33,382 bases of DNA from Acinetobacter phage AbIPP1: sequence record PQ201581.1; one strand, 5' to 3'. Below the pieces are notes generated by a model. That model did no database searches. It was not told the origin of the DNA and saw only the letters and a list, made by a program, of their open reading frames with translations. The translations under genes were made by a program, and so were the position numbers. Shown here one piece after another: positions 6,443 to 7,392 of the stretch (positions within the stretch are counted from its first letter, which is position 1; every line of letters begins with the position of its first letter).

Positions 6443-6766
6443 ATGCGTGCAGGCAAGATAAGACACCGTATCACGGTATATAAGCAAACTAGCGGGCGCT
6501 CACCAACGGGCGCAGTGCTGCCACCAACTTGGACGGCATGGATTGTACTTTGGGCATCATTTGAGTCGCTATCTGTTAAAGATATACTGACAGCGCAAGC
6601 CGCGGGCAGTGAAGTGGAAGCGCGCTGTATGCTGCGCTACCGCAATGATATTGATAGTACGATGCAAATCGAGCACCGTGGTAAGCGGTATGATATCGAC
6701 GGCGACCCAATGCCAGATAATCGCAGCGGACGTGAATATATGACGCTGATGCTAAAGAGTGTTTGA
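6443..6766 (+). CDS. Head closure / head-tail adaptor protein
   Basis: 107 aa. The RHRITVYK motif and the position after the connector match the Phage_H_T_join-like family. Confidence 0.65.
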   Translation: MRAGKIRHRITVYKQTSGRSPTGAVLPPTWTAWIVLWASFESLSVKDILTAQAAGSEVEARCMLRYRNDIDSTMQIEHRGKRYDIDGDPMPDNRSGREYMTLMLKSV

Positions 6767-6789
6767 TTATTTCTACTTTGTTTCTGTGA

Positions 6790-6819
6790 TTGCTAGATTA
6801 ATGTTGTCACTCGTAATAT
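6790..6819 (+). promoter_or_regulatory. Candidate sigma70 promoter for the Ltp-like moron
   Basis: TTGCTA -35 box, 18-nt spacer and TAATAT -10 box in an AT-rich stretch just after the head-closure gene. Confidence 0.35.
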
Positions 6820-6857
6820 ACTTGTCTATTGATTTTACTGTTATGGGCATGTTTGAT

Positions 6858-7340
6858 ATGAAAAAGATAATTAAGTGGATAATTATTATTGTTGTTGCGC
6901 TGTTTGTCATTGGGCTTATCTTTGGCTCAGATGACGCAGAAAAAACAGTGGCACAAACGACGACATCGGCTGATGTCGCTGAGCCCATGATTTCTGAAAC
7001 TGAGGTGGTCGCAGAAGACAATGGTATGACTAATCAGCAGAAAAATGCCGTTAGATCGGCTAAAAACTATATTAGTTTTCAGGGTTTTTCGCGAGATGGT
7101 TTAATCAACCAGTTATCATCTGATGCTGGCGATGGTTACAATATTGACGACGCTACTATTGCGGTTGATAGCATGGATATTGACTACAATGAGCAAGCAG
7201 GTAGGTCCGCTGAGAACTACTTATCATTTACAGGGTTTTCATGTGAGGGCTTAGTGACTCAGTTGTCGTCTTCAGCGGGTGATAAATACACGAAAGAGCA
7301 AGCAGAATATGGCGCTAAACTAGCAGGCGCTTGTGATTAA
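6858..7340 (+). CDS. Ltp-like superinfection-exclusion protein (membrane-anchored, two Ltp repeats)
   Basis: Tandem repeats of about 45 aa (NYISFQGFSRDGLINQLSSDAGDGY and NYLSFTGFSCEGLVTQLSSSAGDKY) match the host-cell-surface-exposed-lipoprotein (Ltp) repeat. An N-terminal signal anchor (IIKWIIIIVVALFVIGLIFG) precedes them. The region is AT-rich and has its own terminator. The track ORF begins earlier, at a GTG at 6759. Confidence 0.7.
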   Translation: MKKIIKWIIIIVVALFVIGLIFGSDDAEKTVAQTTTSADVAEPMISETEVVAEDNGMTNQQKNAVRSAKNYISFQGFSRDGLINQLSSDAGDGYNIDDATIAVDSMDIDYNEQAGRSAENYLSFTGFSCEGLVTQLSSSAGDKYTKEQAEYGAKLAGACD

Positions 7341-7363
7341 AACCCATTAGTATTTTATTAACT

Positions 7364-7392
7364 AAAAACCCACCAATCGGTGGGTTTTTTAT
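7364..7392 (+). terminator. Rho-independent terminator after the Ltp-like moron
   Basis: CCCACC-AATC-GGTGGG hairpin followed by a T6 run. Confidence 0.75.

What the first reader, a model, noticed from the sequence alone, without database searches (positions are those of the whole stretch)
6759..7392. Ltp-like superinfection-exclusion moron inserted between the head-closure and tail genes
An AT-rich cassette has its own candidate promoter (6790-6819) and terminator (7364-7392). It encodes a membrane-anchored protein with two tandem Ltp repeats (YISFQGFSRDGLINQLSS / YLSFTGFSCEGLVTQLSS). The Ltp family is best known from Gram-positive phages such as TP-J34, where it blocks DNA injection via the tape measure protein. 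Here the host appears Gram-negative and the protein has a signal anchor rather than a lipobox. That suggests horizontal transfer of an exclusion module into a proteobacterial phage and expression from the prophage.
Basis: partly seen in the sequence, partly recalled or inferred. Interest (0 to 1): 0.6.

Follow-up and report, generated by a model that had tools for sequence, protein, structure and literature searches.

The report
Ltp-type exclusion moron, Psychrobacter phage
A Psychrobacter phage carries, between its head-closure and tail genes, a small add-on gene for a membrane-anchored periplasmic protein. It has the same fold as Ltp, a Gram-positive phage protein that stops rival phages injecting DNA; it is a correctly identified but already-annotated kind of gene whose function in Gram-negative hosts is untested.

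Summary
A 160-aa ORF (6858-7340, + strand; true start ATG 6858, not GTG 6759) has two Ltp repeats (Pfam PF07553, E=1.8e-28). Its predicted fold superimposes on TP-J34 Ltp (4EQQ; TM 0.89, rmsd 1.6 A). It has a Cys-free hydrophobic N-terminus, a disordered linker and a strong terminator (7364-7392). The proposed promoter is weak (8/12) and the scan did not find it.

The window is a Psymv2-like Psychrobacter siphophage. In Psymv2 the orthologue sits in the same slot and RefSeq already labels it 'superinfection exclusion'. Near-identical genes occur in Psychrobacter prophages. PGAP-labelled 'Ltp family lipoprotein' relatives occur in Acinetobacter, Moraxella, Rhodanobacter, Serratia, Erwinia and Pantoea. 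This is therefore a member of an established proteobacterial clade, not a one-off import from Gram-positive phages.

Moron status is well supported. The slot is empty in HK97 and in distant relatives. It holds other envelope proteins in close relatives. The same gene sits between the tail chaperone and the tape measure in other Psychrobacter phages.

[quoted passage not shown] This is inferred, not shown. Verdict: new member of a known kind, with modest interest.

The parts
6443..6766 (+). Upstream anchor gene: head closure / head completion protein (Hc1). It forms the left border of the slot.
   Evidence: PF05521 E=8e-22 and PHROG 25 E=6.7e-26. Mosaic breakpoints with relatives fall inside or at the end of this gene, at window 6464, 6620 and 6768.
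6767..6857 (+). 5' non-coding module of the cassette (29.7% GC).
   Evidence: It is 99% identical in the P. faecalis prophage although that prophage's Hc1 is only 68% identical at the protein level. The block ATAATATACT (GTAATATACT in all but L027) is invariant in all carriers, including cassettes with a different ectodomain. The promoter match is only 8 of 12 and the scan did not report it.
6858..7340 (+). Ltp-type gene, 160 aa plus stop.
   Evidence: PF07553 E=1.8e-28 in two stretches. PHROG 15667 E=8.8e-57 and PHROG 4980 E=9.8e-39, both 'superinfection exclusion'. 4EQQ by phmmer E=2.4e-8. dN/dS is 0.10-0.23 against four orthologues.
6858..6926 (+). N-terminal targeting and anchor segment, residues 1-23: MKKIIK (three Lys) followed by a 17-residue hydrophobic stretch W7-G23. 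There is no Cys.
   Evidence: Kyte-Doolittle 19-residue maximum is 3.07. AlphaFold predicts a helix over residues 2-22. 100 of 120 homologues have a Cys-free N-terminal region.
6927..7028 (+). Acidic, Thr/Ala/Val-rich flexible linker, residues 24-57.
   Evidence: pLDDT is below 50 for residues 26-51. This is the most divergent part among orthologues (alignment).
7029..7178 (+). Ltp repeat 1, residues 58-107, three helices.
   Evidence: Helices at 59-74, 79-87 and 96-105 with pLDDT above 95. Aligned to 4EQQ residues 12 onward.
7179..7337 (+). Ltp repeat 2, residues 108-160, three helices. It carries Cys129 (7242-7244) and the C-terminal Cys159 (7332-7334).
   Evidence: Helices at 110-124, 129-137 and 146-155. 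The best Pfam stretch is residues 109-152. C129 and C159 are invariant in a 74-sequence alignment.
7364..7392 (.). Terminator T1. It is a bidirectional intrinsic-terminator hairpin, with an A-run on one side and a T-run on the other.
   Evidence: + strand dG -16.7 kcal/mol, z=-4.9. - strand dG -18.8 kcal/mol, z=-3.7. Present in L003, L004, L013 and L016. Absent in Psymv2 and L014.
7393..7532 (.). AT-rich spacer between the two terminators. The segment 7428-7515 is unique to this genome. It contains a 38-aa antisense ORF (7414-7530, - strand) with no family match. It is probably recombination debris from exchanged cargo.
   Evidence: Matches to all relatives break at 7427 and resume at 7516. 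Pfam and PHROG find nothing for the ORF. In the phage collection only the T2 hairpin finds a partner.
7533..7564 (+). Terminator T2. It closes the slot just before the gp10-like gene.
   Evidence: dG -20.7 kcal/mol, z=-4.0. A hairpin followed by a T-run is present at this position in Psymv2 and in L003, L004, L013, L014 and L016.
7582..7968 (+). Downstream anchor gene: HK97-gp10-like tail-completion / neck protein. It forms the right border of the slot.
   Evidence: PF04883 E=7.5e-11 and PHROG 5 E=2.1e-27.
9674..13000 (+). The phage's own tape measure protein (1108 aa). In superinfecting phages this class of protein is the presumed target of Ltp. It is not part of the cassette.
   Evidence: ORF list. 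Homologous to the Psymv2 tape measure protein. The target role is inferred from TP-J34 (Bebeacua et al. 2013, as cited in PMC3952083 and PMC10883804).

Best explanation
The cassette 6767-7392 is a moron carried by a Psymv2-like temperate Psychrobacter siphophage. Its product is a bitopic inner-membrane protein with the N-terminus in the cytoplasm and the C-terminus outside.

The architecture has three parts. A Lys-rich N-terminus and one hydrophobic helix anchor the protein. A flexible acidic linker of about 34 residues follows. It holds a two-repeat Ltp domain in the periplasm, probably stabilised by a Cys129-Cys159 disulfide.

By analogy with TP-J34 Ltp, the repeat domain would intercept the tape measure protein of an incoming siphophage. 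That protein forms or triggers the channel across the cytoplasmic membrane. Adsorption would proceed but DNA would not enter.

In a lysogen the gene would be transcribed from a promoter in the conserved 5' module and stopped by T1 and T2. During lytic growth the late transcript would have to read through both terminators.

Shown here: family membership by sequence and predicted fold; absence of a lipobox; the terminators; purifying selection; insertion into a slot that is empty or differently filled in relatives.

Inferred: topology, disulfide, promoter activity, prophage expression, the exclusion phenotype and its target.
For: Family and fold:
- PF07553 with two repeats, E=1.8e-28.
- PHROG 15667 and 4980, 'superinfection exclusion'.
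- The AlphaFold model has repeats at pLDDT above 95 and superimposes on TP-J34 Ltp 4EQQ: TM 0.89 normalised to the target, rmsd 1.6 A over 102 columns, 34% identity. The next best hit has E=0.5.

Topology:
- Three Lys precede and acidic residues follow a 17-residue hydrophobic stretch.
- Homologues in the clade use a Cys-free N-terminal hydrophobic segment, a lipobox, a short signal-peptide-like leader, or a cytoplasmic zinc ribbon plus a membrane helix. Every one of these would place the repeats outside the cytoplasm.

The gene is functional:
- dN/dS is 0.07-0.14 over the repeats.

Moron status:
- A strong terminator follows the gene.
- The 5' module is conserved across mosaic breakpoints.
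- The slot is empty in HK97, where Hc1 and gp10 overlap, and in distant relatives L031-L038.
- The same gene lies between the tail chaperone and the tape measure gene in L005, L015 and L017, with its own terminators. This is the position of the HK97 gp15 exclusion moron.
- Alternative cargo in the same slot is also envelope-targeted and annotated Sie-like: PHROG 8545 at E=5.7e-36, and a weak hit to a Cor-like lipoprotein family.

Mechanism precedent:
Against: - No Ltp from a Gram-negative host has been tested, as far as the searched library shows.
- The candidate promoter is weak and its -35 is not conserved. Expression might come only from late read-through transcription.
- The prototype ltp lies in the lysogeny module next to int, not in the late operon.
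- Cleavage by signal peptidase I after G23 (I-F-G|S) cannot be excluded by rule. That would give a soluble periplasmic protein.
- In a diderm host the incoming tail must first cross the outer membrane and peptidoglycan, so the geometry differs from that in Streptococcus.
- This genome's integrase is truncated, so this particular phage may not form stable lysogens.
- PADLOC has no model that matches.
Confidence: 0.6

Rival explanations
1. Same family and same target, but the N-terminus is a cleavable Sec signal peptide. The mature protein would then be soluble in the periplasm, like the periplasmic Glo exclusion protein of Vibrio phage K139, rather than membrane-anchored.
For: I-F-G|S at residues 21-24 formally satisfies the -3/-1 rule (read from the sequence). 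Some clade members have short leaders that look like cleavable signal peptides and no linker, for example P0113 MKFLKLAMIAVLFVATPIWA|GSL. TP-J34 Ltp without its lipid anchor is still active and has a broader range (PMC3952083).
Against: The hydrophobic stretch is 17 residues and is predicted as one continuous helix over residues 2-22, which is long for a signal-peptide h-region. There is no Ala-X-Ala motif. A conserved flexible linker of about 34 residues makes most sense as a tether. The zinc-ribbon variants must be membrane-anchored.
Confidence: 0.15
2. The protein is a periplasmic or envelope protein that benefits the lysogen in some other way than blocking injection. Examples are binding a host envelope component, altering a receptor or secretion system, or adhesion. 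In that case the 'superinfection exclusion' label is only annotation transfer.
For: Function is shown experimentally only for Streptococcus phage Ltp proteins, which are about 34% identical. An Ltp-like domain also occurs in the pneumococcal surface protein CbpL, which is studied for virulence (PMC5137146; I saw only the title and abstract). Many homologues lie on plasmids and chromosomes where a phage context was not checked.
Against: The gene is repeatedly embedded in siphophage tail regions, including immediately upstream of the tape measure gene. It alternates in one slot with other Sie-annotated envelope proteins. The fold match to the proven exclusion domain is close.
Confidence: 0.15
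3. The gene is expressed mainly late in lytic infection, by read-through of the structural operon. It would protect the infected cell from secondary infection, or stop progeny from wasting DNA on lysing cells. It would not act as a lysogenic-conversion function.
For: It lies on the same strand inside the late operon. No convincing sigma-70 promoter was found. The integrase is truncated in this genome. In L014 and Psymv2, T1 is absent.
Against: The 5' non-coding module is more conserved than the neighbouring coding DNA. Terminators bracket the gene on both sides in L017. These are the classic signs of an autonomous transcription unit. The two modes are not mutually exclusive.
Confidence: 0.08
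4. The ORF is a decaying remnant with no function.
For: None beyond the weak ribosome-binding site and weak promoter.
Against: dN/dS is 0.10-0.23 overall and 0.07-0.14 over the repeats, with saturated synonymous change. 30 columns are invariant across 74 homologues. The predicted fold is high-confidence.
Confidence: 0.02

Closest known systems
Psychrobacter phage Psymv2 orf32 (YP_009017596.1, RefSeq product 'superinfection exclusion')
   Same: It is the orthologue. It is 69% identical overall and 84% over residues 46-160. It has the same Hc1 / gp10-like slot, the same 5' non-coding module, the same Cys-free N-terminus plus linker plus two repeats plus Cys pair. The phage backbone is about 79-87% identical at the nucleotide level.
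   Different: The N-terminal segment and linker have diverged. Psymv2 has no T1 and carries two more ORFs in the slot: orf33, with a similar hydrophobic N-terminus, and a small ORF. The window instead has T1 plus a unique spacer. Psymv2 has an intact integrase; the window does not.
Ltp of Streptococcus thermophilus phage TP-J34 (PDB 4EQQ; prototype of PF07553)
   Same: Two tandem three-helix repeats with a superimposable fold (TM 0.89, rmsd 1.6 A). An N-terminal membrane tether plus a flexible spacer. It is encoded by a temperate siphophage. It sits at the outer face of the cytoplasmic membrane, which is the equivalent location presumed here.
   Different: TP-J34 Ltp is a lipoprotein with a lipobox; this protein has none. 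TP-J34 ltp lies in the lysogeny module next to int; this gene lies in the late region. The host is a monoderm rather than a diderm. Identity is only about 34%. No Cys appears in the 4EQQ segment aligned to the query, whereas the Cys pair is invariant in this clade. Function is proven for TP-J34 and untested here.
HK97 gp15 superinfection-exclusion moron
   Same: [quoted passage not shown] The chaperone / tape measure slot of gp15 is exactly where the Ltp gene sits in L005, L015 and L017.
   Different: No sequence or fold relationship was found. gp15 is 62 aa with no Ltp repeats. In the window the moron is in a different slot, between Hc1 and the gp10-like gene.
PHROG 8545 'Sie-like' proteins with a tRNA_anti-like OB fold (PF12869), as in IMG/VR loci L024 and L027
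   Same: They occupy the same slot in sister phages. The same 5' non-coding module, N-terminal hydrophobic segment and linker are shared at the DNA level.
   Different: The ectodomain is an OB fold instead of Ltp repeats.

Membership tests
Ltp family (Pfam PF07553; prototype TP-J34 Ltp) | Tandem Ltp repeats scoring above the Pfam gathering threshold | tested here: met
   98.8 bits against a cutoff of 23.2, E=1.8e-28, two stretches. Direct phmmer hit to 4EQQ covering both repeats, E=2.4e-8.
Ltp family (Pfam PF07553; prototype TP-J34 Ltp) | Each repeat is a three-helix bundle, and the pair superimposes on the crystal structure 4EQQ | tested here: met
   AlphaFold model with six helices over residues 59-155 at pLDDT above 95. 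Foldseek top hits are 4eqq_A and 4eqq_B with probability 1.00, TM 0.89 normalised to the target, and rmsd 1.3-1.6 A. This is a predicted structure, not an experimental one.
Ltp family (Pfam PF07553; prototype TP-J34 Ltp) | Lipoprotein: signal peptide ending in a lipobox Cys | tested here: not met
   There is no Cys in residues 1-128. 100 of the best 120 homologues also lack a Cys in the N-terminal region, about five have a true lipobox, and nine have a zinc ribbon plus a membrane helix. PGAP's name 'Ltp family lipoprotein' is a misnomer for this clade.
Ltp family (Pfam PF07553; prototype TP-J34 Ltp) | Flexible spacer between the membrane tether and the repeat domain | tested here: met
   Residues 24-57 are low-complexity and acidic with Thr/Ala/Val. 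pLDDT is below 50 for residues 26-51. The TP-J34 spacer is Ser-rich.
Ltp family (Pfam PF07553; prototype TP-J34 Ltp) | Repeat domain exposed on the outer face of the cytoplasmic membrane | tested here: inconclusive
   The positive-inside pattern and a 17-residue hydrophobic helix predict an N-in, C-out topology. Anchor versus cleaved signal peptide is not resolved. There is no experimental topology.
Ltp family (Pfam PF07553; prototype TP-J34 Ltp) | Gene in the lysogeny module and transcribed in the prophage state | tested here: not met
   Location: the gene is in the late structural region, about 15 kb from the integrase remnant and about 18 kb from the repressor gene, whereas TP-J34 ltp lies next to int. 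Transcription in the prophage cannot be tested with these tools.
Ltp family (Pfam PF07553; prototype TP-J34 Ltp) | Blocks phage DNA injection, with the tape measure protein as target | not testable with these tools
   Needs plating, adsorption and DNA-entry assays, plus mapping of escape mutants.
Moron (as annotated in HK97) | Extra gene between two genes that are adjacent in related phages | tested here: met
   In HK97, Hc1 and gp10 overlap with no insert. L031-L038 have gaps of 40-85 nt. Close relatives carry different cargo of 0.4-1.8 kb.
Moron (as annotated in HK97) | Own terminator | tested here: met
   T1 has dG -16.7 kcal/mol and z=-4.9. T2 has dG -20.7 kcal/mol and z=-4.0.
Moron (as annotated in HK97) | Own promoter | tested here: inconclusive
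   The match is 8 of 12, which is below the scan threshold. The -10 region is conserved but the -35 is not.
Moron (as annotated in HK97) | Base composition differs from its surroundings | tested here: inconclusive
   Cassette 39.3% GC against 43.9% for the window (10th percentile). The CDS alone is 42.0%.

The most novel reading that the evidence does not exclude
In Psymv2-like Psychrobacter phages the Hc1 / gp10-like junction may be a modular exclusion locus. A constant 5' unit (regulatory region, N-terminal hydrophobic segment, flexible linker) would be recombined with alternative periplasmic ectodomains or replaced by other envelope proteins. The alternatives seen are Ltp repeats, a tRNA_anti-like OB fold, a small Cor-like lipoprotein and orf33. 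Exclusion specificity would thus diversify by domain swapping on a fixed tether. Within this system the proteobacterial Ltp clade would be a diderm adaptation of the Gram-positive lipoprotein: inner-membrane anchored, disulfide-stabilised, and blocking tape measure-mediated DNA entry from the periplasmic side.
Probability: 0.35. Interest if true: 0.5.

Novelty: new member of a known kind. Interest (0 to 1): 0.3.

Why it matters
Injection-blocking exclusion proteins are understood mechanistically in only a few cases, such as TP-J34 Ltp, HK97 gp15 and P22 SieA.

If this protein works as inferred, Ltp would be a single fold used against siphophage DNA entry in both monoderm and diderm bacteria. 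That would imply the tape measure step it targets is conserved across envelope types.

Psychrobacter, Acinetobacter and Moraxella prophages would then carry a widespread, easily recognised barrier. This is relevant to phage host range and to phage therapy against Acinetobacter.

As it stands, the gene is a correct and useful annotation rather than a discovery. The orthologue is already labelled, and the family is already named in proteobacterial genomes.

Tried and rejected
- PADLOC models: no match for the Ltp protein or for Psymv2 orf33.
- NCBIfam: only a spurious sub-threshold hit to an ice-binding protein family, 15.5 bits against a cutoff of 400. The PGAP name evidently comes from the Pfam model.
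- Rfam over the whole window: two tRNAs only, and nothing in or near the cassette. I found no evidence for a small RNA between T1 and T2.
- Antisense 38-aa ORF 7414-7530: no Pfam or PHROG match. A DNA search of 7393-7581 found only the T2 hairpin in two Acinetobacter phage records. I treat it as debris.
- Longer ORF from GTG 6759 or ATG 6801, which gene callers used for P0001-P0004 (193 and 179 aa): rejected. The extension is frame-shifted in Psymv2 and absent from most homologues.
- Recent import from Firmicutes phages: rejected on identity. Streptococcus is about 42%, TP-J34 about 34%, against 58-72% for Enterobacterales and Acinetobacter plasmid copies.
- The Cys pair as a signature specific to Gram-negative hosts: rejected. 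An Actinomycetota MAG protein (L006) has the same FSC...C-terminal Cys arrangement. The Firmicutes-type homologues examined (L008-L011) lack it.
- The HK97 gp15 paper (PMC3430355) is not held in the library. I used the HK97 GenBank annotation instead.
- The Cys129-Cys159 distance could not be measured because model coordinates are not exposed.
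Full report
**1. What is in the sequence**

Between 6443-6766 and 7582-7968 lies an 815-nt insert. The upstream gene is a head completion/closure protein (PF05521; PHROG 25 Hc1). The downstream gene is HK97-gp10-like (PF04883; PHROG 5).

The insert contains one convincing gene, 6858-7340 on the + strand, 160 aa. The mechanical ORF list extends it upstream to GTG 6759, and some gene callers start homologues at the equivalent of ATG 6801. That extension is frame-shifted in the closest phage. 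More than 100 homologues begin MKK... at the position of 6858.

The protein has four parts:
- A Lys-rich N-terminus (MKKIIK).
- A 17-residue hydrophobic stretch (W7-G23; Kyte-Doolittle 19-residue maximum 3.07).
- An acidic, Thr/Ala/Val-rich stretch, residues 24-57.

**2. Family and fold**

- Pfam PF07553 (Lipoprotein_Ltp) matches at E=1.8e-28 in two stretches.
- PHROGs 15667 and 4980, both labelled superinfection exclusion, match at 8.8e-57 and 9.8e-39.
- The only solved structure found by sequence is 4EQQ, at E=2.4e-8, covering both repeats. Its entry description names it as Ltp of Streptococcus phage TP-J34.
- An AlphaFold model built on 74 homologues has mean pLDDT 82. It shows an N-terminal helix over residues 2-22, a disordered region at 26-51 (pLDDT below 50) and six helices at 59-155 with pLDDT above 95.
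- Foldseek against the PDB returns 4eqq_A and 4eqq_B as the only significant hits: TM 0.89 normalised to the target, rmsd 1.3-1.6 A, 34-35% identity. The next hit (RecX) has E=0.5.

Membership of the Ltp repeat family is therefore established by sequence and by predicted fold.

**3. What differs from the prototype**

TP-J34 Ltp is a lipoprotein whose gene lies next to int in the lysogeny module and is transcribed in the prophage (PMC3952083). Two things differ here.

First, there is no lipobox. The first Cys is residue 129. Among the best 120 database homologues:
- 100 have a Cys-free N-terminal region, most of them beginning MKKxxKW followed by a hydrophobic stretch.
- About five have a genuine lipobox.
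- Nine have a cytoplasmic zinc ribbon plus a membrane helix.
- A few have short leaders that look like cleavable signal peptides.

All four solutions would put the repeats outside the cytoplasm. This supports an N-in, C-out topology. It does not exclude cleavage after G23.

Second, Cys129 and Cys159 are invariant in the 74-sequence alignment. No Cys appears in the 4EQQ segment aligned to the query, and the Firmicutes-type homologues I translated lack the pair. An Actinomycetota MAG homologue has it. A stabilising disulfide in an oxidising extracytoplasmic compartment is a reasonable inference. I could not measure the distance in the model.

**4. Where the window comes from**

The window aligns with Psychrobacter phage Psymv2, a temperate phage isolated from Antarctic soil, at 74-94% nucleotide identity over most of its length. 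Psymv2 orf32 is the orthologue in the same slot. RefSeq already calls it 'superinfection exclusion'.

Proteins 99% identical are encoded in Psychrobacter faecalis DSM 14664, in Psychrobacter sp. AOP7-C1-14 and in three IMG/VR contigs.

The window has a CI-like repressor, an anti-repressor, an endolysin and an ORF with excisionase-family hits. Only the first 39 codons of the integrase remain, and a tRNA-Leu gene lies where the rest should be.

**5. Is it a moron?**

The evidence is good on four counts.

- *Terminators.* T1 (7364-7392) has dG -16.7 kcal/mol and z=-4.9, and also folds on the opposite strand. T2 (7533-7564) has dG -20.7 kcal/mol.
- *Slot occupancy.* In HK97, Hc1 and gp10 overlap. 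In distant relatives L031-L038 the gap is 40-85 nt. Close relatives carry different cargo:
  - Ltp alone.
  - Ltp plus orf33 (Psymv2).
  - A hydrophobic N-terminus plus a tRNA_anti-like OB-fold protein (PF12869; PHROG 8545 'Sie-like', E=5.7e-36).
  - A 90-aa lipoprotein with a weak match to the Cor exclusion family.
  - An orf33-like protein.
  - A Bro-N anti-repressor-like gene.
- *Mobility between slots.* In three other Psychrobacter phages or prophages (L005, L015, L017) the Ltp gene is 73-80% identical. There it lies between the tail assembly chaperone and the tape measure gene with its own terminator, and in L017 it is bracketed by terminators on both sides. That is the slot of the HK97 gp15 exclusion moron.
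- *Mosaicism.* In the P. faecalis prophage the cassette and its 5' non-coding module are 99% identical to the window, while the adjacent Hc1 is only 68% identical.

The weaker points are the promoter and the composition. The scan did not report it, and promoter-like sites are not enriched in the region. Its -35 varies among relatives, whereas ATAATATACT around the -10 is invariant (GTAATATACT in all but L027). The cassette is 39.3% GC against 43.9%, and the CDS alone is 42.0%.

Because both terminators lie inside the late operon, late transcription must read through them. This implies antitermination, which is an inference.

**6. The gene is under selection**

dN/dS against four orthologues is 0.10-0.23 overall and 0.07-0.14 over the repeats, with synonymous sites near saturation.

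**7. A modular 5' unit**

The OB-fold cassettes of L024 and L027 share the whole 5' non-coding module with the Psymv2 Ltp cassette at the DNA level. They also share the N-terminal hydrophobic segment and most of the linker, and diverge only at the ectodomain. This points to recombination within the tether-coding region and swapping of periplasmic domains on a constant expression and targeting unit. It is the most interesting thing I found beyond the original observation. It rests on a handful of metagenomic contigs.

**8. Horizontal transfer**

Among deposited phage genomes the family is dominated by phages of Gram-positive hosts: 148 records, including Gordonia 100 and Streptococcus 16, against Psychrobacter 2 and Acinetobacter 1.

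In genomes and plasmids, however, there is a broad proteobacterial clade. Psychrobacter, Acinetobacter, Moraxella and Rhodanobacter appear. Erwinia, Serratia, Pantoea, Acinetobacter and Paraburkholderia plasmids appear, at 58-72% identity over the repeats for those listed individually. Most are already named 'Ltp family lipoprotein'.

The nearest relatives outside Proteobacteria are actinobacterial, at 57-60%. So the gene is not a fresh import into this phage. The demonstrable mobility is within Psychrobacter phages.

**9. Mechanism**

I commit to the TP-J34-like model. The protein would be tethered to the inner membrane with its Ltp domain in the periplasm. There it would bind the tape measure protein of an incoming siphophage and prevent the DNA channel across the inner membrane from forming or opening (precedent: PMC3952083 and PMC10883804).

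My confidence is about 0.6. None of the functional steps is shown. I found no functional study of a Gram-negative Ltp.

The rivals are a soluble periplasmic form after signal-peptide cleavage, a different envelope function, and mainly late-lytic expression.

**10. Verdict**

It is a new member of a known kind, already annotated as such in the sister phage, and of modest interest (0.3). The slot's modular cargo and the untested diderm mechanism give a moderately interesting upside.

Noticed in passing
Loci L024 2247-2705, L027 1249-1707, L025 2175-2447 and 2444-2923, L026 2659-2931, L028 2660-2932; window 6767-7581: The Hc1 / gp10-like junction of Psymv2-like phages is a cargo hot spot. It holds alternative small envelope proteins: a hydrophobic N-terminus plus a tRNA_anti-like OB fold (PHROG 8545 'Sie-like'), a 90-aa lipoprotein with a weak Cor-family match, an orf33-like protein with a similar N-terminus, and in L027 also a Bro-N anti-repressor-like gene.
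   Followed up: partly
L024 2154-2430 and L027 1156-1432, compared with L001 3887-4165 and window 6764-7040: The OB-fold 'Sie-like' cassettes share the 5' non-coding module, the N-terminal hydrophobic segment and the linker with the Psymv2 Ltp cassette at the DNA level. They diverge only in the ectodomain. This suggests domain swapping on a constant tether.
   Followed up: partly
L005 6001-6489, L015 5001-5489, L017 5001-5486: In other Psychrobacter phages and prophages the Ltp gene sits between the tail assembly chaperone and the tape measure gene, with its own terminators. This is the same slot as the HK97 gp15 exclusion moron.
   Followed up: yes
window 22208-22665: Only the first 39 codons of the Psymv2-type integrase remain (22549-22665, - strand). 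The rest, together with the attP region of Psymv2, is replaced by about 310 nt containing a tRNA-Leu(UAA) gene (22418-22504, - strand). This phage may be unable to integrate on its own.
   Followed up: partly
window 32364-32440: A tRNA-Val(GAC) gene lies in the early/late junction region. Psymv2 has a tRNA at the corresponding place.
   Followed up: no
window 7393-7532: The spacer between the two terminators contains an 88-nt segment (7428-7515) that no relative shares, and a 38-aa antisense ORF (7414-7530) with no family match. There is a perfect TATAAT at 7437-7442 with a poor -35. It is probably recombination debris.
   Followed up: partly
window 7242-7244 and 7332-7334 (Cys129, Cys159): A Cys pair (FSC in repeat 2 plus the C-terminal GAC-x) is invariant in the proteobacterial clade. 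It is also present in an Actinomycetota MAG homologue (L006). No Cys appears in the aligned TP-J34 Ltp segment, and the Firmicutes-type homologues examined lack the pair. A likely extracytoplasmic disulfide.
   Followed up: partly
Proteins P0037-P0040, P0061, P0071, P0101, P0105, P0117: Some clade members have an N-terminal zinc ribbon (PF13240) before the membrane helix, giving a cytoplasmic domain fused to a periplasmic Ltp domain. Several keep a lipobox-like LAMCSS after the helix.
   Followed up: no
window 6464, 6620, 6768 (breakpoints); window 7364-7392 and 7533-7564: [quoted passage not shown] Two strong terminators lie inside the late operon, so late transcripts must be antiterminated or must read through.
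   Followed up: partly
L001 4509-4988 (Psymv2 orf33): This is a second protein in the Psymv2 slot with a hydrophobic N-terminus. It is 159 aa, has a Lys/Glu-rich coiled region and a C-terminal domain, and belongs to PHROG 32961 of unknown function. It is absent from the window and present alone in L025.
   Followed up: partly
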